DNA of 64,000 nucleotides from an uncultured Sphingobacterium sp. (GCA_964489015.1 CAZAXD010000005.1:13521-77520); one strand, 5' to 3'. Numbered from the stretch's first letter, positions 19,961-34,700 are shown. Notes: a model not told the origin generated them from the sequence alone. Program-made: numbers and translations.

Positions 19961-20164
19961 ATGAGATGGATCAGTCTAGTTTCTTTAGTGGTAGCTTTGA
20001 CAGGGTGCGGCCTGTTTCGGGATCCACGAGCCAACTGCAATCATCCTAAGCACGAGGCTTACCTACGAGAGCAGCAGGCTTCTCGCTTAGCAAAGCAGAC
20101 CCGCTCCCAAAAGAAGCCCGCTAAATATTCTCGTAAAGCGCCTAAAAGCTGTCCTAATCCGTAG
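19961..20164 (+). CDS. Small basic lipoprotein (hypothetical)
   Basis: The signal peptide has lipobox LTGC. The rest is a lysine-rich 67-aa product. This is a low-confidence gene. Confidence 0.3.
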   Translation: MRWISLVSLVVALTGCGLFRDPRANCNHPKHEAYLREQQASRLAKQTRSQKKPAKYSRKAPKSCPNP

Positions 20165-20167
20165 GTC

Positions 20168-22372
20168 ATGCTCCGCGTTCTCTGGGCACTTCTGGGGTTA
20201 GTTTGGGCCCAGGGGCAAATAGAGTTGGTAGGACTTATCCGAGCAGCGGAGGAGGCTGCCCCTCATGAGGTTCCAGGCCTCGTTCAGAGAATGCTGCCTC
20301 TTGCTCGAGCGGCTTGTGCTAGCCGCCCTCAGGATACCCTGTGTCTAAAATATGCCCCACAGGTTCTCGACTTGTGGGCTTATGCGCTCTTTTTTGAGGG
20401 AAAGCTCGATTCAGCTCTCCTGCTAAGTGACTCCGCCTACAAGCTCTTAGAGCGGACGGGTTACATCCGAGAAGCCGCTAGCGTTTTAGGCAATGTTGCT
20501 TATTATCACCATCAAAAGGGGCAAATTGTGTCTGCTATCGAGGCCAACTACAAAGTCCTCGAGCTGGCAAAGACCCTGGATGACACGAGGCTACTGTTTT
20601 ATACCTCCAATAACTTAGCTGCTATCTTTCAGGAGATAGGCATAGAAGACAGCGCGACGCGCTTTTACTTGAAGGCGTTGGACTATGGGGAAAAGCTCGG
20701 CGCTAAAGACCTGGTGGCCACTGTACTGAATAACTTAGCGAAGTTTTACTACGATCAGGGTCTATGCCAAAGCGCGCTGAGTTATGCCAAGCGGGCGCTA
20801 GCCCTTCGTATGGAGAGTGGTGACACGGCGGGGGCCGCTATCACCTACGCCAACCTAGGCGCCTATTATCAGGAGCTAGGCCGAGTAGATTCTGCGAAGG
20901 CTGCTTTACAAGCCGCATTATACTGGTCTCGGCGCTCTAATTACAAGAACGCACAAGCGCTGGCCCTGATCAATCTAAGTCGGCTTTATGCGGACGCAGG
21001 CCTTTGGGATTCTGCCCGGACTTGTCTAGATCAGCTTCTCGAGTTTCGAAAAAATGCTTCAGAATCCGAACGATTTCGTGCCTATCTGGCCATGCTAAGC
21101 TTTTACTATCGCCAGTCAGAGGCTAAGCCCACTCTGCGGCGTACACTCTCTCAGCAGGCCCTTCATTGGCGCACGCAAGCGCTGCCCCTCTTGCCACATG
21201 TCAAGGAAGTAGATCTCGTACGGAACTTTTATTCTGCAACCTATCGGATCTTTGCCAACCTTGGCGATACGGTTAGGGCTTTTCGGGATTACATGATCTA
21301 CATTGCGCTTTCCGATAGCCTGCTTTCTAAAGAATCTAGACGTTCTGCCATCGAGTCTCGTTACCAGTATGAATGGCAGCAGCGCGAGCGCAGCTTACTA
21401 GCCCAGCAGATTCAGTTAGAGGAGCGACGAAAGCGCCAGCTTGTCTGGCTGGGGGTTATGGGTATCCTGCTTTTGGTGGTGGGACTAGGGGCTTTCTGGT
21501 TTTATCGGCTTTATCGTCAAATGCAGTTGCAGCGGGATGTTATTGCAGAAAGCAGTGCTCGTCTGCAAGAGGCGCATGCTGTGATCAAGGCACAGCATGA
21601 CGAGCTGCGCCAAAGCTTACGCTATGCGCAGCGCATTCAGCGAGCCCTTCTCCCCGATCCGATGCGCATGCAGCAGCTGCCCTTTACTTGCCGAATATGG
21701 TTTCAGCCGCGGGGCGAGGTAGGAGGGGACTTTTACTGGCTACGTCGGATAGGAGAAGGCGACCGCTACCTTATAGCCATAGGCGATTGTACCGGTCATG
21801 GCGTGCCTGGCGGGTTTATGACCATGATGCTGATAGCACTTCTAGAAACGGCTCTAGAACAAGAAGCCATTGATCTATCGGGGGCAGCGGCTTTTATCAG
21901 TCATCGTTTGCGCGAGCACCTGCATGCCGATAAGCACGAGGGGGTTCAGGATGGGGCTGAGCTCGTTTTAATAGAACTAGATCTACGCTCGGCCAAGATG
22001 CGCTACATCAACGCTGGTGGGAGTATGCGGGGCTGGTGGGTCAGCCCAGCGTGTTTAGAGGAGATTCGTCCTACAGGGCCTGGCCTCGGCTATAATCCAC
22101 TCGGACGCCCTATGGCTTGGACCGAGTGCCCAGTCGACATATCCGCCGGGGGACGTCTATACCTCTTTTCGGATGGCTATCGCGACCAGCTCAGCCCAGC
22201 AGGACGAAAGTTTCCATGGAAACACCTTCAAAGGGATTTGCCTTCGTTCCAGCGGGAACCTATTGTTTCTGTCCAAGACCAGCTAATTACTCGATGGGAG
22301 CAGCACCGGGGCGGTACGGCCCAGGTCGATGATGTAACTGTGTGCCTTTTAGAGCTACCGCCGCTCAGCTAG
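20168..22372 (+). CDS. TPR-repeat sensor protein with transmembrane helix and C-terminal PP2C/SpoIIE-type phosphatase domain
   Basis: The signal peptide is MLRVLWALLGLVWAQGQ. About 350 aa of TPR-like repeats follow. There is one TM helix (LVWLGVMGILLLVVGLGAFWF) and a coiled coil. The SpoIIE/PP2C motifs are GGDFYW...IAIGDCTGHGVPGG and, at the end, DDVTV. Confidence 0.75.
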   Translation: MLRVLWALLGLVWAQGQIELVGLIRAAEEAAPHEVPGLVQRMLPLARAACASRPQDTLCLKYAPQVLDLWAYALFFEGKLDSALLLSDSAYKLLERTGYIREAASVLGNVAYYHHQKGQIVSAIEANYKVLELAKTLDDTRLLFYTSNNLAAIFQEIGIEDSATRFYLKALDYGEKLGAKDLVATVLNNLAKFYYDQGLCQSALSYAKRALALRMESGDTAGAAITYANLGAYYQELGRVDSAKAALQAALYWSRRSNYKNAQALALINLSRLYADAGLWDSARTCLDQLLEFRKNASESERFRAYLAMLSFYYRQSEAKPTLRRTLSQQALHWRTQALPLLPHVKEVDLVRNFYSATYRIFANLGDTVRAFRDYMIYIALSDSLLSKESRRSAIESRYQYEWQQRERSLLAQQIQLEERRKRQLVWLGVMGILLLVVGLGAFWFYRLYRQMQLQRDVIAESSARLQEAHAVIKAQHDELRQSLRYAQRIQRALLPDPMRMQQLPFTCRIWFQPRGEVGGDFYWLRRIGEGDRYLIAIGDCTGHGVPGGFMTMMLIALLETALEQEAIDLSGAAAFISHRLREHLHADKHEGVQDGAELVLIELDLRSAKMRYINAGGSMRGWWVSPACLEEIRPTGPGLGYNPLGRPMAWTECPVDISAGGRLYLFSDGYRDQLSPAGRKFPWKHLQRDLPSFQREPIVSVQDQLITRWEQHRGGTAQVDDVTVCLLELPPLS

Positions 22373-23248
22373 GAGGTAACCTAAGCCCCACCGGTCAAAA
22401 GTTCTCTGGGTCCTATACCCTAAAGTTGAGAGACGCGTTTGAAGCGGCTGTGGGTCGCCATGGTATTCGATATGCCAAAAGCGGACCCGACGCAAAGTAT
22501 CGGCCGGCGTCACGCCTAAAAGCGCCAATTCGCATCCTTCGCAGTCAAGCTTGACATAATCTACCTCCTCTACCTGTAGGTGGTCTAAGAGCGTCTGGAG
22601 GCTATAAACCCGCACTTGGACCTGCTTATCAAACGCAATGAGCTTTTTGGTGAGGGTGGTGGGCTGGAGGCTATTGGCATCCGGCTCTATAGACGAGACG
22701 TGGAACGTAGCTTCTCCATCCTCTGCGCCCAGAGCGGCGGGTAAGAGAGTAATGAGGTTCTCTATCTGCATGCGGCGGATATTGGCCTGAGCGAGTTCGT
22801 AATTAGGCGGATACGGCTCCAGGGCTATCACGTGCTGGGCGCCGCGCAGGGCAAAGTATATGGCCGAGTCCCCATTATAAGCGCCTACGTCTATGACGGT
22901 CTTCCCAGCGAAAGTGTCCCCGTAATCCTTTCGGATGAAAATCTCGTAAAGCGTCATTAGGTCCATCCCCTCGGCTAGTCTTGTATGAAAGAAGCGGCCG
23001 GGAGCAAGCTCCCAAGCTAATGTCTGCGCGTCTAGCACGGTGGGTTGCCAGCCTGCTTTCCGGAGCTGAAGGAGTCCGTAGACGTTAGGAAGCCAGATTC
23101 GAAGGGAAACGGCCTTTCCCCCGAGACGGAGGGGAAGGGTAGATTGGCCAAGCAGGGCACGCCACCAAAGCTTGAAAGGCCGATCCGTGATTTGGCCTAA
23201 GTCAGACCAGGCTCGTAGGAGCTTCAGTAAATAGATATAGCGCATCAT
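22355..23248 (-). CDS. FkbM-family SAM-dependent methyltransferase
   Basis: The SAM-binding glycine motif is VIDVGAYNGDSAIYFALRG. The remainder is FkbM-like. The start is set at MMRYIY (23248). The low-complexity 5' extension of the listed ORF overlaps the recombinase gene and is rejected. Confidence 0.6.
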   Translation of the reverse strand: MMRYIYLLKLLRAWSDLGQITDRPFKLWWRALLGQSTLPLRLGGKAVSLRIWLPNVYGLLQLRKAGWQPTVLDAQTLAWELAPGRFFHTRLAEGMDLMTLYEIFIRKDYGDTFAGKTVIDVGAYNGDSAIYFALRGAQHVIALEPYPPNYELAQANIRRMQIENLITLLPAALGAEDGEATFHVSSIEPDANSLQPTTLTKKLIAFDKQVQVRVYSLQTLLDHLQVEEVDYVKLDCEGCELALLGVTPADTLRRVRFWHIEYHGDPQPLQTRLSTLGYRTQRTFDRWGLGYLLAERR

Positions 23249-23268
23249 AATTTTGAGGGAGAAGCGTT

Positions 23269-24129
23269 TTAGGCACGGGGATGATATTTTTTGTAAGCTT
23301 CTTTTAGCTGAGCGGGAGAGATGACTAGATATTTCTGCGTGGTGGCGAGGCTGCTGTGACCGAGCATGTCTCTTACGGCTTCTACGGGCAGCCCCCGGTC
23401 TAGCAAATGCGTGGCGATGCTGTGCCGCAGGGCATGGGGGTGCGTTCCGAGGCGAGCCCGGATGATGCGATGCACCGCGCGGCTGTAGAGAGGACGCCCC
23501 GCTGGGGTGCATAGGAGGCGGGCATGGCTGGGATGAAGCCGGCTTCGCTCGGCCAGGTAATGCCGCAGAAGCATCTCTAAACGGGGATAAAGGGGCAACA
23601 CGCGCCAACGCTGCCCCTTGCCTAATATGTGTATCTGTCCGAGTTCAAAATGAATCGAACGAACTTCCAGTGCTAAAGCCTCACTGCGTCGGAGCCCTAA
23701 GCCATATAGCAGTTCAATTAAGACGCGGTCACGTAGGTTGACGAGATCCGTGTCCGTTTCTTGGTCTAGAGCTGATAGCCTAGCTTGTAGCGAGGGTTCG
23801 CTCAGTGCTTTAGGTAAAGCTGGCGACACGCTAGGGGTTTCTAGTCGGAAGGGAAGGCCTTCCCTTCCTGAGATGGTCTTCACAAACTGATCAAATCGCC
23901 TTAAGGTCGTGGCTTTACGGGCGCGAGTAGTGGGATTATCGAAGGTGCTGAGCCAGGCCCGAAGCATATTAGGCCGTACTGCTTGCCAGCCTTCTACGCT
24001 TCCCAAAATATCCACTCCATAAACCTCTTGGCAAAAGTGTTGCCATCCCACGAGATCGCGCCGATACGCTTCTATGGTGCGGGGACTTTTGCCCTCTATC
24101 TCGAGGCGCTGTAAAAAGGCGTCCAACAC
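23269..24129 (-). CDS. Tyrosine site-specific recombinase (XerC/XerD-like integrase)
   Basis: The N-terminal SAM-like core-binding domain is present (SPRTIEAYRRDL). The catalytic residues are present: R in GLRRSEAL, HxxR in HALRHS, and the Tyr nucleophile in ATTQKYL. The start is uncertain: GTG at about 24129, or TTG at 24192. Confidence 0.7.
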   Translation of the reverse strand: MLDAFLQRLEIEGKSPRTIEAYRRDLVGWQHFCQEVYGVDILGSVEGWQAVRPNMLRAWLSTFDNPTTRARKATTLRRFDQFVKTISGREGLPFRLETPSVSPALPKALSEPSLQARLSALDQETDTDLVNLRDRVLIELLYGLGLRRSEALALEVRSIHFELGQIHILGKGQRWRVLPLYPRLEMLLRHYLAERSRLHPSHARLLCTPAGRPLYSRAVHRIIRARLGTHPHALRHSIATHLLDRGLPVEAVRDMLGHSSLATTQKYLVISPAQLKEAYKKYHPRA

Positions 24130-24161
24130 CAAACAAAAGTACGTTTCCTCATCTTTGCAGC

Positions 24162-25013
24162 GTGGGGTACGTCGTTGGCTGTATCGTGACAAGTGCTTTG
24201 CTCCTGGTGTGGCTCCGGCTGTGGCGATTGCCTGTCTTTAGCCTGGTCACAGCTAATTACTTGGTGGCGGTGGCGGCCGCCCTCCTCTTGAGGCCCTTGG
24301 CGAAGGAGCCGCTTGAGCGGCTTCCCCTCGTGGGGTGGCTACACCTGGTGGGGCTAGGTGTGTTGTTTATAACGGTCTTTTTCCTAACGGGTCGTGTTGC
24401 GCGAGAGATGGGGGTAGGCATAGCTGGCATGCTCTCAAAGCTCTCTCTCGTTCTCCCGATTGCTTACTCTGTGCTATTCCTGGGAGAGCCGTTTTCTTTT
24501 AGGCAGGGTGTAGGCGTGGGTTTAGCTTTGGGGGCTATTATCCTTGTGCATGTGCCTTACTTACAAAGAGGTGGGCTACTACGGCTCTGGCAGGCGATGC
24601 GGCTCGGCCTTCTTTTATGGGTAGGCAATGGGGTTATAGACATCGCTTTCAAGTCTGGGCAGGTGTACTGGACGGAAATCCCAGCGGAAAATATTCCCCC
24701 CCTGATTATGGGCACGGCTGGCCTGTTAGGACTGGTCATACATGGCTTGCAGGGCGAATGGCGATCTCTAATCAGTGTCCGTTTGTGGATAGGCGCCTTA
24801 GTATTGGGTCTTACGAATATTGCTTCGGTTATTTTTTACGTCATGGGGCTTCAGACCTTACCAGGGGTGATATTCTTCTTGATCCTGAACCTGGGTATTG
24901 TCATGCTGTCTGGTTTTTTGGGTGTGCTTCTTTTTCGAGAGCGCTTGACGTGGGCAGTTGCCAGCGGCTATCTGCTGGGTCTTTTAGCGATAGGTCTTAT
25001 AAGTTGGTCCTAA
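24162..25013 (+). CDS. DMT/EamA-like 10-TM permease
   Basis: Ten hydrophobic helices. EamA-like motifs sit at the domain ends (VLFLGEPFS). 283 aa. Confidence 0.45.
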   Translation: MGYVVGCIVTSALLLVWLRLWRLPVFSLVTANYLVAVAAALLLRPLAKEPLERLPLVGWLHLVGLGVLFITVFFLTGRVAREMGVGIAGMLSKLSLVLPIAYSVLFLGEPFSFRQGVGVGLALGAIILVHVPYLQRGGLLRLWQAMRLGLLLWVGNGVIDIAFKSGQVYWTEIPAENIPPLIMGTAGLLGLVIHGLQGEWRSLISVRLWIGALVLGLTNIASVIFYVMGLQTLPGVIFFLILNLGIVMLSGFLGVLLFRERLTWAVASGYLLGLLAIGLISWS

Positions 25014-25762
25014 AATGAAGAAGGCCCCCTTTTGGGGGCCGACCGGCTGGACTGACAAGATCGCAACTGATGTGTGAAGAGCAAGAGCCTTCTAAGGGCG
25101 CTTTCGCTCACATCCAGTTTTTGCGTAGAAGATCTAAACTTCTCTATGAATACGAGGGGATCGGGAAACAAACTATTTACTAGCTCAGCTTCTTGCTCTA
25201 ACTCGTCGAAATGAGGGGAGCGCTCCGCCGTGTATTTGATAAGGTACCGGTGCACAAAATGGTTACGCCCCTCGCCAGGAGCTTGGGGCAAAGGATGAGC
25301 GTACAACTCCTGCGGTAAAGATACTTTGAGCCTGCATAACGCAAACAGCCAAGCGGGAATAAGGGGTAGTTCAGAAAACGGAAGATACCGCGCCCACACC
25401 CGCCCGCAGCTGGGTGGAGCAATGACCCCGCGCCCCTCCCATTGAAAATCAACCCCCTCCAACACCTTGCGGGGAAGCTCTGTCAGCTCAGCACGAAAAT
25501 AGTAGTGCGCGCCTCGAGACGTGCGGTAATAGGCACACTCCGTGTTTTGAAGCAGTTGATGCAGGGAGGTATGCAGCAGGGTGCTGCCATCCACATCGAC
25601 AACGAGAAGGCCCAGGCCCGTAAGAATGCCAACATCTGCACCTTCAGGCCAGGTGGCGGGATTATACTTATACGCCTGCCAGCCCGCTGCTAGCGGACGC
25701 TTGCCCTGGGCAGGGTATACCCTGTACCCGTCTCGGACCAGGCGCTCAACTGTTACCGTCAT
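25010..25762 (-). CDS. Bifunctional DNA primase/polymerase (Prim-Pol) N-terminal domain protein
   Basis: It resembles archaeo-eukaryotic primase-like Prim-Pol domains found on plasmids, phages and integrative elements: YPAQGKRPLAAGWQAY, the acidic LLVVDVDG, and the downstream aromatic/His block. Confidence 0.5.
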   Translation of the reverse strand: MTVTVERLVRDGYRVYPAQGKRPLAAGWQAYKYNPATWPEGADVGILTGLGLLVVDVDGSTLLHTSLHQLLQNTECAYYRTSRGAHYYFRAELTELPRKVLEGVDFQWEGRGVIAPPSCGRVWARYLPFSELPLIPAWLFALCRLKVSLPQELYAHPLPQAPGEGRNHFVHRYLIKYTAERSPHFDELEQEAELVNSLFPDPLVFIEKFRSSTQKLDVSESALRRLLLFTHQLRSCQSSRSAPKRGPSSF

Positions 25763-25934
25763 GATTGTGTATCTTGACTACGCGTTTTAGATATTCCGCA
25801 CGATGCACAAACGTCTTGTGCCCTATGTCAATATAAGGAACCTTGTACCCTTTTAAGTGCCTGCGTACAGTAGCCGTACAAATTCCCAGCTCCTTCGCAA
25901 GCCGGGGAAGGTGGGTATACTCGCCCAGGTCCAT
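25746..25934 (-). CDS. Excisionase-family helix-turn-helix DNA-binding protein
   Basis: The 62-aa protein has the HTH_17/Xis-like pattern LPRLAKELGICTATVRRHLKGYKVPYIDIGHKTFVHRAEYLKRV. It overlaps the Prim-Pol gene start by about 17 nt. Confidence 0.5.
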   Translation of the reverse strand: MDLGEYTHLPRLAKELGICTATVRRHLKGYKVPYIDIGHKTFVHRAEYLKRVVKIHNHDGNS

Positions 25935-26297
25935 ATGGTAAATTTAGCACTACAACCATTACAATTAGCATGCCATAGCCAAGCACTCTGCCCGCCTCAC
26001 CACCCTTAGCACCGCTCCCCAAGGCCCCCAGCCTCCCCATAAAACAGAACAGGCCGCCAAAAGCGTTAGAACGCCAAAAAGAGCCGTTTTACCCCTATCA
26101 CTCGTGTGATCCCGCCCAGGCCCGAAAACCCCGCTCAAATCGGCTCTGAATACCGCTGGCCGCTTCCCTATCCGCTGCCCCGCGCCCGCTGCTAGGCATC
26201 TGCATCGGTGGTAAGCGCGCGCGGATATCTGCTCAAATCTGCGGCTTCGTGCACAAGATCTGTCACACAAAGCACTCATAAGTCCCTGTCCGCCAAT

Positions 26298-26540
26298 GGG
26301 TTCCGTCTCTGATACACATCAAGTGTCGCGTTCGCTAACCCTCTTATATCTTTTTTTTATAGTGTATCTATTTGGAAAGAGATACACTTGATGTGTATCA
26401 GGCTCGGAAGTCGCTGTCCTACAGCCACTTATGAAACGTATTTGTAACAGATAGTGAGCACGAAGAAGGGTCAAAGAGCACTTCAAGTGTAACACCCCTC
26501 TGCTTCTTGGTTTGAGGGTGTATCTAAATAGATACACTTA
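26298..26540. promoter_or_regulatory. Array of inverted heptamer sites GTGTATC/GATACAC (iteron- or operator-like)
   Basis: GTGTATCtatttggaaagaGATACACttgatGTGTATC lies at about 26359-26396. A second palindrome GTGTATCtaaataGATACAC lies at about 26518-26537. An outer 18-bp inverted repeat pairs CTGATACACATCAAGTGT at about 26300 with ACACTTGATGTGTATCAG at about 26385. All lie in a 1 kb non-coding region next to the Xis/Prim-Pol genes. Confidence 0.6.
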
Positions 26541-26897
26541 AACCCACTCCAAAAAGTTTTTTGCAACATCATGGCATTTGCACTTTATGGCGAGCGAGTA
26601 GAGGGCGTGCATGAGCTTGGGAAAGTTATATTTTGTGGCATGCTAAGTATGGCGAGGGGTTCTAGGGTGCCCCGCGTGGTACAGAATTTGATGAGTATTC
26701 CAGGGAAACACAAACTTCAATGCCTATGAAAACGCAAGTAGAACGGTATGAAGCCGTTCGGAGCCGTGTGGGGACGAGCCTACTGCTAGGCGTGAACACC
26801 TTTGCGAGGCCCTCTCGTCCCTGCCCGCGGGCGAGCGAGTGGAGGCACTGAGGGAAATGGCTTTGCTCGGCTACGCATCACACGCTTCACAACGTTC

Positions 26898-26924
26898 AGC
26901 AGCTTCCTCGTGCTGAGCAGCTCA
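26898..26924. promoter_or_regulatory. Perfect 27-bp palindrome about 50 bp upstream of the S8 peptidase start
   Basis: The sequence is cctcgtgctgagc-a-gctcagcacgagg (13-bp arms). It is followed by aaaaagagg rather than a T-run, so it is not a canonical terminator on either strand. A candidate operator or RNA stem. Confidence 0.5.
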
Positions 26925-26976
26925 GCACGAGGAAAAAGAGGGTCCCCTTGGTTGCATGAAAAGCTTACCTTAGGCT

Positions 26977-29900
26977 ATGCGCTGGTGGATCGTGGGATGG
27001 ATAGGCGCTATGTGGGCTCAGAGCTTCTGTGTAGCGGTGGCCCCTCAGCAAAAAGAACTGGCGCGGGTCCTGCGTCAAAATCGACTCGCTGCGCCGGTCC
27101 GTCAGGGACCCTTATGGAAAGGTCTTTCGCGAGTAACTCCATTAGTAGCTGATACGAGTTTGACAGACCTGAGCCACTGGTTTGTGCTCTCGTTTCAGGG
27201 AGAGGACAGCGCTGCGGTGGTGCAGCGGTTACTACAAAGCGGATACTTCTGGGTGGTGGAGCCCAATCACCGCCGCCGATTGTGTGCAGACCTGTATGGG
27301 TGGCATCATGCAATCATGGGTACGGCGCAAGCCTGGACCCGCACGATGGGACACGCGAACGTTCCGATCGCTATCATCGACACCGGGCTAGATACTGCTT
27401 TAGGGGCCTTTACAGGACAGTACTGGGTCAATGCCCCAGAGGATCTTAACGGCAATGGTCGCTTGGATTCTGCAGACCTCAATGGGCTCGATGACGACGG
27501 TAACGGCTGGATCGATGATGTGATCGGGTATGACTTTACGGACCAGGCTCGGGGTATTGCTGCGGGAGATGCTTGGACACCCGACCCGATCCCTGTAGAT
27601 GAGAATGGGCATGGCACCGCTGTAACGAGCTTGATCGCTGCGCGATCGGATAGAGGGCCGATAAGCGGCTTAGCGCCAGGTTGTCGGATTCTGGTGATAC
27701 GGGCTTTTAGTGCAGACGGCTACGGGGAGGATGATGATATCGCGCGAGGTGTACTTTATGCAGTAGAGCGGGGAGTTCGGGTCATCAACTGCAGCTTTGG
27801 CGATGAAGCCCCTTCGCAAATGATGCACGCTGTGATCCGGTATGCGGCTGCGCGTGGCGTGGTGGTGGTAGCCTCTTCTGGCAATGGCAGTGGAGGACGT
27901 CCCCACTTTCCCTCAAGCTTTCCCGAGGTAATTAGTGTGGGTGCCGCAAGCTATGACCCTGAGAGTGGTCGGCCCTTTTTGTGGCCCTTCTCGGGGTATA
28001 GCCGGGTAGACTGGATAGCACCTGGTGACCGAATTCCCGTTCTCCTACCAGGGGCCCAGGTGGCTAGCCTAAGTGGGACGAGCCTCAGTGCGGCGCTCAC
28101 AAGTGCGGCGATAGCTCTGTTACTAAGCCGCTTTCCCGGGCTAACCCCGGAAGCCGTCCGCGCTACACTAGCTGCTTCTGCTCAAGACTTAGGCGGGCCG
28201 GGCTGGGATGTGTATACAGGCGCAGGCCTGCTTAGGCTTTTGCCCGGCTTAGACCAGCCACACGAAGGGCTCATTCAGTGGCTCGAACCGGCGCCTCATA
28301 CAACGGCGCCGCTCGCGCCTGTGGCGCTTCGACTCCGGATTTATCATAGCCTCCTGGTAGGTTGGGAAGTGGCCCAAGCTAGAAGCTTGCAGGGGCCCTG
28401 GCTCGTGATCGCTAGAGGTCATCGCCCCGCTTGGGATACAAGCTTTACATGGCAACCGTCTAGCGAGGGTCAGTGGTATTTGCGCCTCTCTGCTATGCTT
28501 CGGAATGGTCAAGCGCAAGCGAGCATCCTTCCCTTAGAGGCTGTGCAAGGAGGTTTGCGCTTTGAGCAGGCTGAGATAGGCCCTGCATGGCGGGAGGGTT
28601 TCCAGGGCCGTGTGGCTAACTACCTACTCAATGCGTCCGCTCCAGTCTGTGTGGAGAGCGCCTCTGACCGATTATGTGCCGATAAAATCGATACCATTGG
28701 CGCGATCTTTTTAGGCATCAGGCCTTCCACGGCCTGGACCTTTCAAGCGCTTGGGGGCTTGGATACACCCCAGGTCATGCGCAGCACGCCGCCCCCCGCC
28801 TATGAAGCGCTAGCCTTTGATGCCTACGCCATTCGAAATATATCGGCGCCTGCTGGTTTTTACTGGCCTTATCCGCTCCCAGACTGGGGTGGGGATGGGC
28901 TGCCCGATTACGCTGCTGCGGTTTATGACGAGCAGGGGTATTTTCAGCATGTCGTTTATATAGAACGACGAGGGGCGGTGTATGAAGCGTACGACAGTCT
29001 GACGGCGAGGCCTATGCTTATCCGGGACGTGAGAGACTGGGATGCCGATGGTCAGCCAGACTTGCTAGGCGTGTGGGTAGACAGCTTCTTTGTGTGTAGC
29101 GGTAGTCCGCCCAAAGAGATCGTATGGCGAGGGGCCGGTCGGGCTGCCCGCTTAGACGCCAACCAGACCATCTGGCGACGCACGGAAAACGGGCACTACG
29201 AGCGCGTCTCTCAGCAGGGACAGGTCCTGGCGCGCTTGCTGGATACCACTACCTGGCAAGGCTCTACCACGATCCCTCGGCTGCTGCTGCTGCCTGCTGC
29301 TTCAGAGACTCTCTGGGTTTTTGGCAATTATTCAGGTTGGATTTTTGCCTATCGGGGGTCCTCGCTGGTAGAAGCTTATCCTACTAGCCTATGGGGGGTA
29401 GGCTCCTATCTCGAGGCTGTCGAGCTAAACGGCGATAATCAGAGCGAATTAGTTTATCTGGGGCAGCGGCCTGGGGCCAAACTGTGGGAGCTAGGCATCT
29501 TAGGCGGGCGACCTTGGCAGCACATAGCTCAAAGCGTATTTTGGTACGAGGGTGATTATGCGCCTAGACTCTTTCTGCGCGCCGATACGGTCCTGCTGTG
29601 GTTGCCTCCGTACGTGTACGTTGGCCAGCTTAGTATGAGTGGTATCCGCTGGTGGGCTTATGGACCGGCGGCTTGGGGCGCCTTTGGGCCACTAAGAGAA
29701 GGTTGGCTTCTTGGTCTCGACTCAGTCCCTTGTGTGGTAGAATATACCCCGCCTGTCCTCCTAGCGCCGGCCTGGATTCGGGTAGGAGCGTTAGGCGTGA
29801 ATGCCGTAGACCTTAGTTGGTCTCCAGTCGGCAGTGCTACAGGCTATGAGCTCTGGCGTATAACTGGTAATCAAGCCACTTTGGTTTATGCAGGTGCTCA

Positions 29901-30822
29901 GACGGATTACGTGGACACAGGGCTGGTAGCGGGGCGATATGCTTATGCCGTTCGGGCCATTGGCGGGGCCTTTGGTGAGGTCCGCGTGGTGAACTTAGGC
30001 CCCCGTCCCTGCCTAAGCGTGATAGACCTAAAGCCCCACCTTGGTCAGGTGATCCTCCAGGGTAATAGCAGTTGGTGGCAAAACGGTGAGTCTGCTTTTA
30101 CCTTGGAACCAGGGAACCTAAAACCTCTTTTGGCGCTGGGCAGTGGCCCTACGTGGATTTTACAATTTGCAGAGCCTTTGCAGGCAGGGGCTTACCGGCT
30201 AGTCATCGATACGCTTCTCCAAGATGAAGACGCCCGCTATTTAGACCCTGCATGTGATACGGTACTTCTCATTGTGCCGGCCTTACCTGGCGATACCTGT
30301 CCAAAAGCCATTACATGGGAGGCTGTTGACGAGCGCAGCATAGCAGTGACTTTTTCCCAGGCGCCGGGTCCTAGAGCAGAGGAGCTTACCTCATATACGA
30401 TACTCCCGGCCGGCCAAGTGGAAGCTATCACACGAATCACGCCTACCCGTTTACAGCTTCAGTTGTCCGTTTCTCCGAGTCGGGTGCCGTTTAGTTTAGT
30501 CTGGGCTTGGGACTCTACGTGTAAGGGTACGATAGCTTTTTCGCCCTTGGCCGAGAAGCTAGTAGAGTGGGCGCTCTTTCCCAATCCTATCCGTCGGCAG
30601 CATCGAGCCGTATTTTTTGGGGGGCTGCCGCCCGGGACCACTGTACAAATCTTGTCAGCAGATGGTGCACTCTGCACTCGTCTGAGAAAAGCTAAAGGGG
30701 AAACTTTATTGAGCTGGGATTTGCATACGCTACAGGGCGAGAGGCTGGCCCCTGGCGTTTACGTCGTAATCGCTGAGTACGCCGGCCAGCGCTTCTATGA
30801 TAAGCTGGTGGTCTTAGAGTAG
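26977..30822 (+). CDS. Large secreted subtilisin-like S8 serine peptidase with Fn3-like region and T9SS C-terminal sorting domain
   Basis: The signal peptide is MRWWIVGWIGAMWAQS. The S8 catalytic triad is in canonical order: D in IAIIDTGLD, H in NGHGTAVTSLIAA, S in SGTSLSAALTSAAIALL. An Fn3-like segment is present (VDLSWSPVGSATGYELWR). The C-terminus is a T9SS CTD (TTVQILSADGALCTRL...LAPGVYVVIAEYAGQRFYDKLVVLE). 1281 aa. Confidence 0.8.
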   Translation: MRWWIVGWIGAMWAQSFCVAVAPQQKELARVLRQNRLAAPVRQGPLWKGLSRVTPLVADTSLTDLSHWFVLSFQGEDSAAVVQRLLQSGYFWVVEPNHRRRLCADLYGWHHAIMGTAQAWTRTMGHANVPIAIIDTGLDTALGAFTGQYWVNAPEDLNGNGRLDSADLNGLDDDGNGWIDDVIGYDFTDQARGIAAGDAWTPDPIPVDENGHGTAVTSLIAARSDRGPISGLAPGCRILVIRAFSADGYGEDDDIARGVLYAVERGVRVINCSFGDEAPSQMMHAVIRYAAARGVVVVASSGNGSGGRPHFPSSFPEVISVGAASYDPESGRPFLWPFSGYSRVDWIAPGDRIPVLLPGAQVASLSGTSLSAALTSAAIALLLSRFPGLTPEAVRATLAASAQDLGGPGWDVYTGAGLLRLLPGLDQPHEGLIQWLEPAPHTTAPLAPVALRLRIYHSLLVGWEVAQARSLQGPWLVIARGHRPAWDTSFTWQPSSEGQWYLRLSAMLRNGQAQASILPLEAVQGGLRFEQAEIGPAWREGFQGRVANYLLNASAPVCVESASDRLCADKIDTIGAIFLGIRPSTAWTFQALGGLDTPQVMRSTPPPAYEALAFDAYAIRNISAPAGFYWPYPLPDWGGDGLPDYAAAVYDEQGYFQHVVYIERRGAVYEAYDSLTARPMLIRDVRDWDADGQPDLLGVWVDSFFVCSGSPPKEIVWRGAGRAARLDANQTIWRRTENGHYERVSQQGQVLARLLDTTTWQGSTTIPRLLLLPAASETLWVFGNYSGWIFAYRGSSLVEAYPTSLWGVGSYLEAVELNGDNQSELVYLGQRPGAKLWELGILGGRPWQHIAQSVFWYEGDYAPRLFLRADTVLLWLPPYVYVGQLSMSGIRWWAYGPAAWGAFGPLREGWLLGLDSVPCVVEYTPPVLLAPAWIRVGALGVNAVDLSWSPVGSATGYELWRITGNQATLVYAGAQTDYVDTGLVAGRYAYAVRAIGGAFGEVRVVNLGPRPCLSVIDLKPHLGQVILQGNSSWWQNGESAFTLEPGNLKPLLALGSGPTWILQFAEPLQAGAYRLVIDTLLQDEDARYLDPACDTVLLIVPALPGDTCPKAITWEAVDERSIAVTFSQAPGPRAEELTSYTILPAGQVEAITRITPTRLQLQLSVSPSRVPFSLVWAWDSTCKGTIAFSPLAEKLVEWALFPNPIRRQHRAVFFGGLPPGTTVQILSADGALCTRLRKAKGETLLSWDLHTLQGERLAPGVYVVIAEYAGQRFYDKLVVLE

Positions 30823-30838
30823 ACCTGGCATAAAGTTT

Positions 30839-31492
30839 GTGACTTCACCCACTGCTATGCTAGCGCGTATTGTCCTGATGGTAGGGGCTTTGAGCTTAGG
30901 GCTCGCCCAGGTCTCTGACAAAGAGGCTAAAAAAGAGATTCAGCGAAAAGCTATCAAAGAAGCCCGAAAAGAGGCTAAAAAGTTCAAAAAACAGGGTTAT
31001 GATGTCATGCCAGGCTCGCTGCCCATGGAAAAGCAGCTTGAGTACACCTGGATCAAGCTGTATCAGCGCGATGAGAAGGGCCAACCCCTGTACTTAAGCG
31101 CTGATGGGAATGCTGTGGCAGAAACCCGGACAGCGGCGGAGATGCAAGCGCTCGAAGCCGCCAAGCTCAACCTTGCTGGCCAACTCGAGACGTTCATCCG
31201 GGCTATCATCGAGGCAAATATTGCCAATGCCCAGCTTAATGCCGAAGAAGCGGCTTCTGTAACGGAGTTTCTCACAGCAGCTAAGAATATCATCGTTACT
31301 TCCATCTCACAGGTAGATCCGGCCTTCAAGATTTACCGTAACCTTTCTAATAGAAACGTGGAGGTCAATGTCAAGCTGCTGGTGAGTCGGGATCAGGTTG
31401 TACAAGAAGCCAAAAAGCGAGTTCGGGAAGAGCTGCGGGAAAGGCTCAGGGGCTTGCAAGACAAAGTAGACAAGCTGCTGCCATTGCAGTAA
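30839..31492 (+). CDS. Secreted Lys/Ala-rich coiled-coil protein (hypothetical, possibly LPP20/LpoB-like fold)
   Basis: It has a signal peptide, a lysine-rich repeat (KEAKKEIQRKAIKEARKEAKKFKK) and an alanine-rich helical core. It is the first gene of a tightly packed four-gene same-strand cluster. Confidence 0.45.
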   Translation: MTSPTAMLARIVLMVGALSLGLAQVSDKEAKKEIQRKAIKEARKEAKKFKKQGYDVMPGSLPMEKQLEYTWIKLYQRDEKGQPLYLSADGNAVAETRTAAEMQALEAAKLNLAGQLETFIRAIIEANIANAQLNAEEAASVTEFLTAAKNIIVTSISQVDPAFKIYRNLSNRNVEVNVKLLVSRDQVVQEAKKRVREELRERLRGLQDKVDKLLPLQ

Positions 31493-31495
31493 CCT

Positions 31496-32341
31496 ATGCG
31501 GGTCATCTGGGTGGTGGGGCTCGTCTGGGCCCAGGTCAAGGTCGTCAGTGGTACAGCCAGCGTCGAACTGCGTCCTGGCTGGTCTATGGAGCGGGCGCAG
31601 CGAGAAGCCTACCAACTAGCGATCCTCAATGCGCTCCAGACGGGCTTCCCCACCCAAGTCGCCCAAGCTAGTAAGTACCTTCTTCAAAACCGAACCGAGG
31701 GTCAGTCAGCCCAGACTACGACATACTTCTTTCTCACGGCAGACCAGTACCTTGGCGCCGAATGGCTCGAGACCTTGTCTGCTAAATACGAGACCCAGAT
31801 AGAGCGCGGCACGGTCGTAGTCACTTGCAGAGTAAAAGGTCGAGCCCGTGCCCGCGAAGTGCCGGCTATTCCCGTGGAGGTACGTCCTTTGCGCTGTCAA
31901 GATACAGCTTGCTTTACCCTCGATTTTAAGGACGGGGACCCCTTTTATCTGTATGTTCGCGTGCCGGTAGCTGGCTTCGTGCAGGTATTCTGGGAAGAAG
32001 GGGGCGCGATTTATCGCCTTTTGCCGTATCAGGGTATGCGCGTACAAGCGGTGCCCGTCCGACCAGATACGACCTATCTCTTCTTTTCTTTACGCACAGG
32101 CAGCCGTTCTGAAGCCTTCTGGACAGATGAGCTCATTCTCACGGCAGAGCAGCCAGAGGTGTTACATCGGCTGTATTTTCTGTTTTCGCCGAATCCTTTA
32201 GCTGCTCCGCCAGAACGGTACGATGACCGGCGCGGCTTTCATGGGGTAGACATGCAAGCTTTTCATGAATGGCTCTTGAGCGAGCGCCTTCGAGATGAAA
32301 AACTAACCTTGAAAATCCTAGATATAAGCATACGAAAATGA
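31496..32341 (+). CDS. Secreted hypothetical protein (caspase-associated; DUF4384-like by recall)
   Basis: The signal peptide is MRVIWVVGLVWAQV. The gap to the upstream gene is 4 nt. It overlaps the downstream WD40-caspase gene by 4 nt, which suggests translational coupling. Confidence 0.45.
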   Translation: MRVIWVVGLVWAQVKVVSGTASVELRPGWSMERAQREAYQLAILNALQTGFPTQVAQASKYLLQNRTEGQSAQTTTYFFLTADQYLGAEWLETLSAKYETQIERGTVVVTCRVKGRARAREVPAIPVEVRPLRCQDTACFTLDFKDGDPFYLYVRVPVAGFVQVFWEEGGAIYRLLPYQGMRVQAVPVRPDTTYLFFSLRTGSRSEAFWTDELILTAEQPEVLHRLYFLFSPNPLAAPPERYDDRRGFHGVDMQAFHEWLLSERLRDEKLTLKILDISIRK

Positions 32342-34167
32342 AAAGGTTCTGGTGTCTCTTGGGAGTCCTTGCATGGGCTCAACCGTATAAAGATCTGGAA
32401 GGGCATGCGGGTCCTATCAACGCCGTAGCCTTTACCTACGATAGTCACTATTTACTATCAGCGGGTAGCGACCGGCAAGTCGTTTTATGGTCGATCCCAG
32501 GTGGAGATCTCGTTAGCCGATTTCAGGGGGCTACGGCTAGCGTAAACGGTTTGGCGCTACTGCCCGATAGTTCTGGTGTATTTTGGGGCGCCTCCAGCGA
32601 TGGGAAGTTGTATCAGTGGCGGATTCGGAAACCCTCAGAGTGGCGAGCGGAGAACTGGTCTCGGGTTTCTCGTGACAAAGCCGTGGACCTATCTAAGCGC
32701 CTTCAAAAAACGGGACCGCCTATTTTATGGGAAGCGGTGACTATCCATCCCCGAAAGCCGCTCTTGTTTGCCTTAAGCCGGTACGGCCGGCTAGTCAGTT
32801 GGGACATCCAAGAAGAGTGGCTCCAGACGTATACCGACACGGCAGAGGTTGCTTATGCTTTAGCGATGCCGACCCATGGCAAGGTCCTGTACTTAGCGAG
32901 TGGCAGCGGAGCCATATATGCCTTGGACCCTAGTGATCTATCAACCAAAGAGGTTTTACGGGGACATCGAGATGGGGTGAGAGGGCTGGCGATTAGTTAT
33001 GATGATCGCTTGCTAGCTAGCGCGGGCTTAGATGGCAAAGTGATGGTCTGGCAATTACCGGAGGGTTTGCGGATACGGACGCTAGAGGGGCATAAGGACG
33101 GGGTTCGAGCAGTTAGCTTTAGCCCAGATGGTCGATATTTAGCGAGTGCGGGACGGGATGGACTCTTGTGCATCTGGGATGTGGCGACGGGTCAGCTAGC
33201 GAAAAGCCTTTCCTTGCCGAGTTCTCTGTGGGCGGTAGCCTTTAGCCCCAATGGCCAATATCTCGTCGCTGGCGGTAGTGAGGGCTTTTTGCGTCTGTGG
33301 CGTATCGACCAGCTTGGAATTCGCCCGGCCCAAATCCTTTCACCTCGGGATGAACTCTACACCCCTCCCCTTGTGCTCGAAGACGATGTGCCGGTCTGCC
33401 AAAAACCGCGTCCTTATCGGTACGCCTATATCATCGGCAATGAGGACTATCGTTTGTTTCAGCCCACTTTTACCCCGGCTATGAATGTCCCATATGCCGT
33501 TCGGGATGCGTACACCTTTCGGGTCTACGCCGAGCAGATCTTGGGGATACCCCCGCAGAATATTGTTTTTCTTCAAAATGCCACGAGTGCCCAGATGCGC
33601 CGCGAGCTAGACAAGCTATTGATTTTAGCCCAGGCGAGTCGGGGAGAAGCCGAGATATTCTTTTATTATGCGGGGCATGGCGTGCCTCATCCAGAGACAA
33701 AGGAGAGCTATCTCTTGCCAACCGATGCTTCGCCGCGGCAGCCGGAGGAGGGTGGCCTTCGCTTGACGGATATTATTCGGCAATTGGCAGAGAGCGGTGC
33801 CCATCGGGTGTGGCTTGTGGTCGATGCGTGCTTTAGCGGGGGCGCGCGCGAAGAGAGCCCCCTAGCTAGCCGAGGTATCCGCATTCGCCCGCGTCCCATT
33901 CAGCTGCGAGGGCCAACGGTACTATTGGCCGCTAGTAGTGCCGACCAGGAGGCTCTTCCCTATCACCAAGCCCAGCATGGGCTCTTTACCTACTTCCTGC
34001 TAAAAGCGCTGCGAGAGTCCTGCGGGTCTAAGTCTTTAAAAGCTATCTTCGAACAGGCTCGTCTGGAGACGACCCGGTATGGTCTGCTTCTGCATGAGAA
34101 GCTTCAGGAGCCTACTCTCTTAGTCAGTCCTGCTTTGCCCGAAACCGTCCTTTCAGAAAGCTGGTAG
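32338..34167 (+). CDS. Secreted WD40-repeat / caspase-like (peptidase C14) fusion protein
   Basis: The signal peptide is MKRFWCLLGVLAWAQP. There are at least six WD40 repeats (...LASAGLDGKVMVWQL, LASAGRDGLLCIWDV, LVAGGSEGFLRLWRI). The C-terminal caspase fold has the catalytic His in FFYYAGHGVPH and Cys in LVVDACFSGGA. Confidence 0.75.
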   Translation: MKRFWCLLGVLAWAQPYKDLEGHAGPINAVAFTYDSHYLLSAGSDRQVVLWSIPGGDLVSRFQGATASVNGLALLPDSSGVFWGASSDGKLYQWRIRKPSEWRAENWSRVSRDKAVDLSKRLQKTGPPILWEAVTIHPRKPLLFALSRYGRLVSWDIQEEWLQTYTDTAEVAYALAMPTHGKVLYLASGSGAIYALDPSDLSTKEVLRGHRDGVRGLAISYDDRLLASAGLDGKVMVWQLPEGLRIRTLEGHKDGVRAVSFSPDGRYLASAGRDGLLCIWDVATGQLAKSLSLPSSLWAVAFSPNGQYLVAGGSEGFLRLWRIDQLGIRPAQILSPRDELYTPPLVLEDDVPVCQKPRPYRYAYIIGNEDYRLFQPTFTPAMNVPYAVRDAYTFRVYAEQILGIPPQNIVFLQNATSAQMRRELDKLLILAQASRGEAEIFFYYAGHGVPHPETKESYLLPTDASPRQPEEGGLRLTDIIRQLAESGAHRVWLVVDACFSGGAREESPLASRGIRIRPRPIQLRGPTVLLAASSADQEALPYHQAQHGLFTYFLLKALRESCGSKSLKAIFEQARLETTRYGLLLHEKLQEPTLLVSPALPETVLSESW

Positions 34168-34182
34168 TCGTACCTTCGCGCC

Positions 34183-34686: not shown

Positions 34687-34700
34687 GGGCGGTTCGCTGC

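What the first reader, a model, noticed from the sequence alone, without database searches (positions are those of the whole stretch)
22355..26976. Probable remnant of an integrative mobile element: recombinase - DMT permease - Prim-Pol - excisionase - iteron-like region
Four features co-occur here: a tyrosine recombinase, a primase-polymerase domain protein, a 62-aa excisionase-type HTH protein, and a long structured non-coding stretch with palindromes. This combination is characteristic of integrative, mobilisable or satellite-like elements. Prim-Pol and Xis overlap at their gene ends. The element may have delivered the adjacent cargo (the S8 subtilase and caspase operon, 26977-34686). No tRNA or obvious att repeat was found by eye, so the boundaries are unknown.
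Basis: inference. Interest (0 to 1): 0.5.

Follow-up and report, generated by a model that had tools for sequence, protein, structure and literature searches.

The report
Decayed phage fragment between core genes
Only the 1.8-kb Prim-Pol / HTH / palindrome stretch is foreign DNA: it is a scrambled, dead leftover of a tailed phage's replication-control region wedged between two conserved chromosomal genes. The recombinase, the permease and the protease/caspase operon are ordinary core genes of this bacterial lineage.

Summary
The listed features exist, but they do not form one element. In 12 related Bacteroidia loci the order SpoIIE–FkbM–Xer–EamA(–S8–…–WD40/caspase) is conserved, and none carries Prim-Pol or the HTH gene. 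Against the closest relative (L002), window 25155-26946 (1,792 bp) is a clean insertion replacing 13 nt of the EamA–S8 spacer.

The insert is phage-derived. Its Prim-Pol matches only residues 1-203 of 666/679-aa primase-helicases (63% identity). Those sit on phage contigs with portal, terminase, endolysin, ERF and RecE-like exonuclease, two of them from the same series of sequencing-run accessions. The remaining 47 codons of the "250-aa Prim-Pol" are read-through into host intergenic DNA. The palindrome region is collinear with the phage's non-coding control region. A 26-codon ERF start fragment and primase codons ~204-222 lie at the opposite end, so the fragment is circularly permuted.

Best reading: a circular phage genome, or a deletion derivative of it, entered by illegitimate recombination through a break in its own primase gene and lost nearly everything else. 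It has no integrase, att sites or helicase. This is an ordinary prophage-type fossil, useful mainly as a host–virus link.

The parts
25155..26946 (.). The insertion itself (1,792 bp), absent from all relatives. In L002, 13 nt occupy this position.
   Evidence: blastn: window 20006-25154 = L002 13474-8324 and window 26947-35250 = L002 8310-36. Both flank alignments beat 1000/1000 shuffles. An independent Logan contig, L001, is 100% identical across both junctions. Its tetranucleotide profile is the most deviant of 208 same-size windows, while GC is 0.531 against 0.541.
25154..25762 (-). 5' third (codons 1-203) of a phage primase-helicase gene: Prim-Pol/AEP domain plus most of PriCT-1. The helicase (DUF5906) part is missing.
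   Evidence: PF09250 E=7e-13. HMMER against 1.84 G representatives: best relative P0123, 666 aa, 63% identity, collinear over residues 5-202, with the next hit at only 39%. BLASTP similarity stops at 'DPL' residue 203 = nt 25154. P0123 domains are Prim-Pol, PriCT_1 and DUF5906.
25010..25153 (-). Read-through tail of the Prim-Pol ORF (47 codons). This is host intergenic DNA, including the EamA terminator hairpin and a second conserved hairpin; it is not element DNA.
   Evidence: Alignment to the L002 EamA-S8 spacer. Terminator-like hairpin at 25023-25040.
25746..25934 (-). 62-aa HTH_17-like (MerR/excisionase-fold) DNA-binding protein gene, intact, overlapping the primase start.
   Evidence: Weak HTH_17 and PHROG DNA-binding hits. 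Aligns with the 63/65-aa HTH_17 genes in the same position in L006 and L088.
26230..26600 (.). Palindrome / operator- or origin-like region. It holds three inverted pairs of GTGTATC, ACACTTnAAGTGT palindromes, an AT-rich core (GC 0.41 over 26300-26560) and an 82-nt imperfect hairpin at 26245-26465.
   Evidence: Collinear with the phage non-coding region L088 7850-8260: 44 nt at 84% identity, E=1e-7, with five shared palindromic blocks. The motif is also enriched in L088, 6 copies against 0.8 expected.
26791..26868 (+). Fragment of the 5' end (codons ~3-28) of an ERF-type single-strand-annealing protein gene. It lies on the strand opposite to HTH/Prim-Pol, as in the phage.
   Evidence: tblastn of L088 ERF: 50% identity over 26 aa; 1 of 300 dinucleotide shuffles reaches the score. 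L088 5891-6694 is Erf-like, phrog_155 E=1e-25.
26864..26917 (-). Primase codons ~204-222 (end of PriCT-1: ..LLNVVKRVMRSRA). This is the continuation of the gene that breaks off at 25154, sitting at the other end of the insert. It abuts the ERF fragment at 26864-26868.
   Evidence: tblastx to L006 and L088. 1 of 300 shuffles reaches the score anywhere in residues 204-666, and the hit falls on the first 26 of them. Joining the two pieces raises the BLASTP score to P0123 from 268 to 280 bits in one collinear alignment of residues 1-236 against 1-229.
26918..26946 (.). Junction filler of uncertain origin. It holds the outer arm of a perfect 15-nt palindrome (26904-26918 / 26920-26934) and a second possible 'Asp-Pro-Leu' triplet (26936-26944) that imperfectly repeats (6/9 nt) the DPL codons at the left end (25154-25162).
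   Evidence: The DNA alignment to the phage homologues is ambiguous here.

Best explanation
Window 25155-26946 is a dead, circularly permuted fragment of the early/replication control region of a tailed phage that infects this Bacteroidia lineage. It is inserted in the spacer between the core genes EamA and S8.

Read on the minus strand, the insert is:
- primase codons ~204-222;
- ERF codons 28 to 1, on the opposite strand;
- the palindromic operator/origin-like region;
- the HTH gene;
- primase codons 1-203.

This is what remains if a circular phage genome, or a deletion derivative of one, was opened inside its own primase-helicase gene at about codon 203 and joined to the chromosome by illegitimate, non-site-specific recombination. 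Everything from primase codon ~222 round the circle to erf codon ~28 was then deleted: helicase domain, terminase, lysis and structural genes, exonuclease. The order of the two events is not resolved.

Shown:
- The segment is an insertion relative to all relatives.
- Its exact boundaries.
- Its homology and collinearity with phage contigs.
- The permutation of the primase gene.

Inferred:
- The circular intermediate.
- The illegitimate mechanism.
- That the fragment is now immobile and non-replicative: it has no recombinase of its own, no att repeats, no helicase and no packaging genes.

The neighbouring Xer-like recombinase, FkbM methyltransferase, EamA permease and S8/caspase operon are vertically inherited chromosomal genes unrelated to it.
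For: - Empty site and synteny.
- Truncation exactly at the chromosome junction, from two independent lines of evidence: protein homology ends at nt 25154 and DNA homology to L002 starts at 25154.
- Full-length relatives are 666/679-aa Prim-Pol+PriCT_1+DUF5906 proteins on contigs with portal, TerL, GH108 endolysin, VRR-NUC, ERF and RecE-like exonuclease. TerL is 36% identical to Bacteroides phage terminases.
- L088 and L089 carry run accessions SRR11582149 and SRR11582164, the same accession series as the window's organism (SRR11582145) and L002.
- The HTH-primase gene pair and the palindromic region are conserved and collinear with the phage.
- Primase continuation and ERF start fragments sit at the far end in the expected orientations.
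- No other phage-like segment is found in the 64 kb.
- No tRNA and no second recombinase in the window.
Against: - The two short fragments (about 18-27 and 26 codons) are each only moderately significant on score alone (1/300 shuffles). Their weight comes from position, strand and collinearity.
- The donor phage itself is not sampled. The nearest relatives are ~63% aa / ~66% nt identical, and three genes present in L088 (358, 126 and 163 aa) have no trace in the insert, so extra deletions or different gene content must be assumed.
- The HTH ORF and the 203 primase codons are free of stops, so 'dead' is an inference from missing parts, not from decay.
- Whether the related phages are temperate, or carry an integrase, could not be seen. 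The contigs are partial, and the rest of the 21-kb contig could not be fetched.
- The outermost ~29 nt at the right junction are unexplained.
Confidence: 0.72

Rival explanations
1. One integrative or mobilisable element runs from the recombinase to the non-coding region, uses the Xer-like recombinase as its integrase and the HTH as its excisionase, and delivered the S8/caspase operon.
For: A tyrosine recombinase, Prim-Pol and an HTH_17-like gene lie within 3 kb of each other.
Against: FkbM-Xer-EamA is conserved in 12/12 related loci and S8.. in 5, all without Prim-Pol or HTH. The Xer orthologues have uniform length, 50-71% identity and one locus per MAG. The insertion boundaries (25155 and 26946) exclude the recombinase, the permease and S8.
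Confidence: 0.02
2. The insert is an integrated copy of a small (~1.78 kb) self-replicating circle, a lambda-dv-like mini-replicon or satellite made of the phage's origin/operator region, the HTH gene and a short Prim-Pol+PriCT-1 primase (~252 aa when the ends are joined). It might be able to excise again and so restore its primase gene, by analogy with SSV1-type proviruses that split their integrase gene.
For: Joining the ends gives an in-frame ORF with complete Prim-Pol and PriCT-1 regions. Many stand-alone Prim-Pol proteins of 230-290 aa exist. Both intact ORFs are stop-free. There is a possible 9-nt imperfect direct repeat at the ends.
Against: The reconstructed ORF runs out through the antisense of an ERF gene fragment, which looks like a deletion scar and not a designed gene end. 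No free or second copy was found in 5.8 G proteins, IMG/VR or the JGI metagenome contigs. No recombinase or att core is present. The repeat is only 6/9 nt and its alignment is ambiguous. PriCT_1 is not detected by Pfam in the reconstructed protein.
Confidence: 0.08
3. The fragment is retained because it is useful. The intact HTH protein and its cluster of palindromic binding sites, and perhaps the stand-alone Prim-Pol domain, act as a superinfection-immunity or decoy module against the related phages.
For: The HTH ORF and the catalytic Prim-Pol domain are intact. The palindromes are the same motifs as in the phage control regions. Related phage contigs carry accessions from the same run series.
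Against: There is no PADLOC hit. The segment is found in one genome only, so there is no conservation to show selection. The phage gene in the repressor-like position (126 aa) is absent from the insert.
Confidence: 0.1
4. Assembly chimera: phage reads were wrongly joined into the chromosomal contig.
For: The genome is a metagenome-assembled one, and related phage contigs carry accessions from the same run series.
Against: Two assemblies, the NCBI 107-kb contig and Logan contig L001, agree at 100% across both junctions. The insert is only ~65% identical to the co-occurring phage contigs, so it is not those reads. A chimera would need two precise mis-joins within one 188-nt spacer.
Confidence: 0.03

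Closest known systems
Cryptic / defective prophage remnants in bacterial chromosomes (for example the E. coli K-12 remnants; own knowledge)
   Same: Strain-specific insertion of phage-derived DNA. It retains a few early-region genes and regulatory sites and has lost its structural, lysis and packaging genes.
   Different: It is very small (1.8 kb) and has no integrase or att site. It is not at a tRNA. It is circularly permuted with the break inside the phage's primase gene, which points to illegitimate integration and not to site-specific integration.
Uncultivated tailed phage represented by contigs L088/L089 (SRR11582149/SRR11582164) and L006 (SRR24079437)
   Same: HTH_17 gene followed by a Prim-Pol/PriCT-1 primase (63% aa identity over 203 residues). 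Same palindromic motifs in a collinear non-coding region. ERF gene on the opposite strand.
   Different: The window copy lacks the helicase domain, the 358-, 126- and 163-aa genes and all late genes. Identity is too low for these contigs to be the actual donor.
Lambda-dv type plasmids (deletion derivatives of a phage that carry only its replication-control region; own knowledge)
   Same: The gene content of the circularised fragment is the regulatory region plus the start of the replication operon.
   Different: No evidence of autonomous replication. The replication protein is truncated. Only an integrated copy is seen.
SSV1-type integration in archaeal fuselloviruses, where attP lies inside the integrase gene and integration splits it (own knowledge)
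   Same: A gene of the element is partitioned between the two ends of the integrated form.
   Different: Here the split gene is a primase, not an integrase. There is no recombinase in the element, no tRNA target and no conserved att core.
IMEX elements (integrative elements exploiting host XerC/D at dif; own knowledge)
   Same: A small element without its own integrase lies ~1 kb from a Xer-like gene.
   Different: No dif-like repeat is seen at the junctions. GC skew does not change sign here. The junction lies inside an element ORF.

Membership tests
Integrative/mobilisable element with its own tyrosine integrase (genomic island, IME, satellite) | The recombinase gene lies inside the variable segment and is absent from empty sites. 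| tested here: not met
   The recombinase is present in 12/12 related loci in conserved FkbM-Xer-EamA order. The insert boundaries 25155-26946 exclude it.
Integrative/mobilisable element with its own tyrosine integrase (genomic island, IME, satellite) | Flanking att direct repeats, often at a tRNA/tmRNA gene. | tested here: not met
   No tRNA or tmRNA in 64 kb. There is only a doubtful 6/9-nt repeat at the ends.
Integrative/mobilisable element with its own tyrosine integrase (genomic island, IME, satellite) | Adjacent genes are cargo, meaning they vary together with the element. | tested here: not met
   The S8-217-281-WD40/caspase block is present next to EamA in L002, L003/L014 and L019, and S8 alone in L013 (whose 10-kb flank ends after it), all without the insert.
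Defective prophage / phage-derived remnant | The segment is absent from the same site in close relatives. | tested here: met
Defective prophage / phage-derived remnant | Its genes and non-coding sites are homologous to, and collinear with, a genome that carries phage hallmark genes. | tested here: met
   L088, L089 and L006 carry portal, TerL, endolysin, ERF and exonuclease. HTH, primase, palindromes and the ERF fragment are collinear.
Defective prophage / phage-derived remnant | Loss of functions needed for a phage life cycle. | tested here: met
   No structural, packaging, lysis, helicase or integrase sequence is found in the insert or elsewhere in the window.
Housekeeping XerC/XerD chromosome-dimer resolvase (for the 286-aa recombinase) | Full-length Xer architecture, and single-copy orthologues in conserved synteny across the lineage. 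| tested here: met
   XerC model aligned end to end. About 30 orthologues of 284-286 aa. One syntenic locus per species representative.
Housekeeping XerC/XerD chromosome-dimer resolvase (for the 286-aa recombinase) | Scores above the curated equivalog cutoff, acts at a dif site, and has a partner recombinase. | tested here: inconclusive
   199.6 bits against a cutoff of 335. No dif site identified. No second Xer in this 64 kb. The whole genome was not available.
Excisionase (Xis/RDF) for the 62-aa HTH protein | Encoded next to, and functionally paired with, an element integrase. | tested here: not met
   In the insert and in L006/L088 it precedes the primase-helicase, with no integrase nearby. 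HTH_17 is below the Pfam cutoff.
IMEX (Xer-exploiting element at dif) | dif-like XerC/D binding palindromes at both junctions, with a location at the replication terminus. | tested here: not met
   The junction sequences have no shared ~28-nt site. Cumulative GC skew rises on both sides.
Integrated small plasmid / mini-replicon | Circularising the insert restores a complete replication gene and origin. | tested here: inconclusive
   Joining the ends restores the Prim-Pol plus PriCT-1 region in frame. However, the ORF ends in antisense ERF sequence, the helicase is absent, and no free copy was found.

The most novel reading that the evidence does not exclude
The 1.8-kb segment is the integrated form of a phage-derived mini-replicon or satellite. 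It parks in the chromosome by opening inside its own primase gene and regenerates a functional Prim-Pol/PriCT-1 primase on excision. That would be a reversible split-replication-gene switch with no recombinase of its own, possibly driven by the host Xer encoded 1 kb away.
Probability: 0.04. Interest if true: 0.7.

Novelty: new member of a known kind. Interest (0 to 1): 0.22.

Why it matters
The result removes a false lead. The recombinase, the permease and the protease/caspase operon are core chromosomal genes, so they should not be annotated as an island with cargo. The "250-aa Prim-Pol protein" in the databases is a fusion of a truncated phage primase with translated intergenic DNA.

On the positive side, the fragment gives a physical host link between an uncultivated Bacteroidia lineage and an otherwise unplaced tailed phage whose contigs carry accessions from the same run series. 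It is also a clean, fully delimited example of illegitimate phage-DNA capture with a permuted gene, which could be used to study how prophage fossils arise. None of this is surprising to a specialist.

Tried and rejected
- Rfam on the whole window and, permissively, on 25700-27100 found nothing real.
- tblastn of the primase fragment against the INPHARED phages and PLSDB plasmids gave no match.
- The word-index search of 5.8 G proteins with the 250-aa ORF returned only itself. The exhaustive HMMER search was needed to find P0123.
- IMG/VR scans with the primase alignment, the phage TerL and the operator palindrome found no relatives. The JGI metagenome scan gave only 33%-identical primases.
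- Pfam and PHROG scans of the small ORFs in 25935-26976 gave no hits.
- Pfam on the L088 126-, 163- and 358-aa proteins gave no hits, so the lambdoid 'repressor' reading of the 126-aa gene stays a guess.
- PADLOC gave nothing for Prim-Pol or HTH.
- A cheap-gap global alignment of the junction region was uninformative and was replaced by local alignments with shuffle controls.
- The idea that the 9-nt 'DPL' repeat is an att core or a target duplication was considered and left open. It matches at only 6/9 nt, and MAFFT does not place it consistently.
- The IMEX/dif idea was rejected on GC skew and the lack of a dif-like repeat.
Full report
**What is in the region**

| Coordinates | Strand | Feature |
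|---|---|---|
| 20168-22372 | + | TPR/SpoIIE phosphatase |
| 23269-24129 | - | Tyrosine recombinase with full-length XerC/XerD-like architecture, 286 aa from a GTG start. XerC model 199.6 bits, below the equivalog cutoff of 335 |
| 24162-25013 | + | EamA/DMT permease |
| 25010-25762 | - | 250-aa ORF with a Prim-Pol (AEP) domain |
| 25746-25934 | - | 62-aa HTH ORF, overlapping the Prim-Pol start by 17 nt |
| 25935-26976 | | ~1 kb without a convincing ORF |
| 26977-34686 | + | S8 subtilase (26977-30822), then genes of 217 and 281 aa, a WD40-caspase and a 167-aa gene |

There is no tRNA or tmRNA and no Rfam family. The non-coding stretch really is structured:
- 26235-26550 folds with z=-7.2.
- It holds an 82-nt imperfect inverted repeat and several short palindromes.
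- Six of the window's fourteen GTGTATC heptamers lie in 26311-26537, arranged as three inverted pairs.

**The recombinase, permease and 'cargo' are core genes**

The recombinase has about 30 orthologues of 284-286 aa at 50-71% identity in 'Bacteroidia bacterium' MAGs. Similarity then drops sharply to ~39% for generic XerC/D from other phyla.

Context look-ups and a scan of GTDB species representatives gave 12 informative related loci, counting L002 and L003 together with L009-L019. tblastn with the window's proteins shows three things:
- FkbM next to Xer in all twelve, with EamA on the other side in every locus with enough flank.
- SpoIIE and the TonB-dependent receptor beyond FkbM in six.
- S8 next to EamA in L002, L003/L014, L013 and L019.

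None of these loci contains Prim-Pol or the HTH gene. No second Xer-like gene is present in the 64 kb.

**The true insertion and its boundaries**

The closest relative is L002 (Logan SRR11582164; Xer 71% identical, ~72% nt identity overall).
- Window 20006-25154 aligns to L002 13474-8324.
- Window 26947-35250 aligns to L002 8310-36.
- Local alignments of both flanks beat 1000/1000 shuffles and end at 25154 and 26947.

L002 has a 188-nt EamA-S8 spacer, and 13 of its nucleotides are replaced in the window by 1,792 bp (25155-26946).

More distant relatives also have EamA and S8 ~180 nt apart. The empty state is therefore ancestral, and this is an insertion in the window's lineage.

An independent Logan contig (L001, SRR11582145) is identical across both junctions. 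The insert's GC is unremarkable (0.531 against 0.541), but its tetranucleotide profile is the most deviant of 208 windows of the same size.

**The Prim-Pol ORF is a truncated phage primase fused to host spacer**

A word-index search found no relative. An exhaustive HMMER search of 1.84 G representatives found one close relative: P0123, 666 aa, 63% identical and collinear over residues 5-202. The next hit is at 39%.
- P0123 has Prim-Pol, PriCT_1 and DUF5906 (helicase-type) regions.
- BLASTP similarity of the window ORF to P0123 stops at 'DPL', residue 203. That is nt 25154, exactly where homology to L002's spacer begins.
- Codons 204-250 are therefore fortuitous read-through across the host spacer, through the EamA terminator hairpin.

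**The donor is a tailed phage**

P0123 lies on L006. Its 77%-identical relative P0272 lies on L088 (a 21-kb contig, SRR11582149) and on L089 (SRR11582164, the same run as L002).

These contigs carry:
- portal, RecE-like exonuclease, an ERF annealing protein and a 358-aa gene;
- a ~0.9-kb non-coding region;
- 126-aa and 163-aa genes;
- a 63-65-aa HTH_17 gene directly followed by the primase-helicase;
- large terminase, GH108 endolysin and VRR-NUC.

The terminase is 36% identical to those of Bacteroides and Parabacteroides phages. The window's HTH protein aligns with the phage HTH proteins, sharing LAK..G....V....VP..IG...V...E..RVV. It is thus the first gene of a phage replication operon, not a demonstrated excisionase.

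**The 'iteron-like' region is the phage's control region**

Window 26562 to 26360 (minus strand) is collinear with L088 7879-8111.
- One 44-nt block is 84% identical (E=1e-7).
- Five palindromic blocks are shared: GTGTATCTAnnTAGATACA, ACACTTnAAGTGT and others.
- GTGTATC is also enriched in L088, and it recurs between the divergent 126- and 163-aa genes.

These are most simply read as binding sites for a phage DNA-binding protein at early promoters and/or the origin. That function is inferred, not shown.

**The fragment is circularly permuted**

- At the far (right) end, on the same strand as the primase, 26917 to 26864 encodes ..LLNVVKRVMRSRA... This matches P0123 and P0272 residues ~204-222, the continuation of the gene that breaks at 25154.
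- Only 1 of 300 dinucleotide shuffles reaches that score anywhere in residues 204-666 of P0123, and the real hit is at the very first of them.
- Joining the pieces gives one collinear alignment of residues 1-236 against 1-229 and raises the score from 268 to 280 bits.
- Abutting this piece at 26864-26868, on the opposite strand, 26791-26868 encodes REHLCEALSSLPAGERVEALREMALL. It is 50% identical to residues 3-28 of the L088 ERF protein, with 1 of 300 shuffles as good.

In phage coordinates the insert therefore reads: primase 204-222, then the erf start, then the control region, then HTH, then primase 1-203.

That is the phage circle opened at primase codon ~203 and deleted from codon ~222 round to erf codon ~28. 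The outermost ~29 nt at the right junction are not explained. They hold the outer arm of a perfect 15-nt palindrome at 26904-26934 and a possible second DPL triplet that repeats the left-end codons at 6/9 nt. They may be fold-back or filler DNA.

**Mechanism**

The best-supported account has three parts:
- Phage DNA was captured by illegitimate recombination. There is no integrase, no att repeat and no tRNA, and the break lies inside an essential phage gene.
- Almost the whole genome was then lost, either before integration (a mini-circle) or after it (a deletion in situ).
- What remains cannot replicate, excise or be packaged.

The intact HTH gene and Prim-Pol catalytic domain leave room for residual activity or an immunity-like role, but nothing tested here supports that.

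Rivals, with the probability I give each, are in the Rival explanations section: the one-element model (0.02), a mini-replicon (0.08), a retained immunity module (0.10) and an assembly chimera (0.03).

**Comparison and verdict**

This is a small defective-prophage-type fossil. Its unusual aspects are its size, its cleanly resolved boundaries and the permuted primase gene.

- Novelty: new member of a known kind.
- Interest: low, about 0.2. The main value is correcting the annotation and linking an uncultivated phage to its host lineage.

Noticed in passing
window 22355-24129; L002, L003, L009-L019: The Xer-like recombinase and an FkbM-family methyltransferase form an invariant, tightly adjacent same-strand pair in all 12 related loci, even where all other neighbours differ (L005, L009, L010). 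This is an unusual conserved pairing. The methyltransferase has a weak PADLOC 'mad2' hit (E=9e-8).
   Followed up: partly
window 26977-34686: The block of 1281-aa S8 subtilase, 217-aa and 281-aa genes, WD40-caspase (609 aa) and a 167-aa membrane protein is conserved in L002, L003/L014 and L019. It hits the PADLOC 'subtilase' and 'caspase' models. It is a lineage-core operon of unknown role, not cargo.
   Followed up: partly
L088 (SRR11582149), L089 (SRR11582164), L006 (SRR24079437): An uncultivated tailed phage with a lambdoid-like layout: exonuclease-ERF operon leftwards, palindromic sites on both sides of a 126-aa gene, and a 163-aa/HTH/primase-helicase/terminase operon rightwards. It has no relatives in the IMG/VR scans. 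TerL is 36% identical to Bacteroides phages. The window insert is a host link for this phage group.
   Followed up: partly
window 26904-26934: A perfect 15-nt inverted repeat separated by 1 nt (TTCCTCGTGCTGAGC A GCTCAGCACGAGGAA) lies 13 nt from the right junction. The inner arm looks like primase coding sequence, and the outer arm has no counterpart in the phage homologues. This may be a fold-back signature of the joining event.
   Followed up: partly
window 25069-25115 vs L002 8398-8358: A second hairpin in the EamA-S8 spacer is conserved with changed stem sequence: GATGTGTGA...CTCACATCC against GGATGTAAG...CTTACATCC. It may be a conserved regulatory or terminator structure upstream of the S8 operon, now separated from S8 by the insert.
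   Followed up: no
window 25828-26040 (-) vs 25746-25934 (-): The gene call shown for the public Logan contig chose a 70-aa ORF in another frame, not the HTH ORF. The exact HTH and 307-aa recombinase sequences are not in the protein collection, so the HTH gene is probably unannotated in the source record.
   Followed up: partly
window 59430-62120: Two tandem 418-aa ORFs (59430-60686 and 60811-62067, minus strand). On the plus strand, identical 26-nt AATTTAGGAAT x2.4 repeats lie just past the high-coordinate end of each ORF (60714-60739 and 62095-62120), i.e. upstream of each gene. This is a local tandem gene duplication.
   Followed up: no
L003/L014 8815-9924 and 2607-3704: In MAG KatS3mg025 an extra 369-aa gene lies between EamA and Xer, and a DEAD-box helicase lies between S8 and the 197-aa gene. 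These spacers are therefore recurrent sites of gene gain in this lineage.
   Followed up: no
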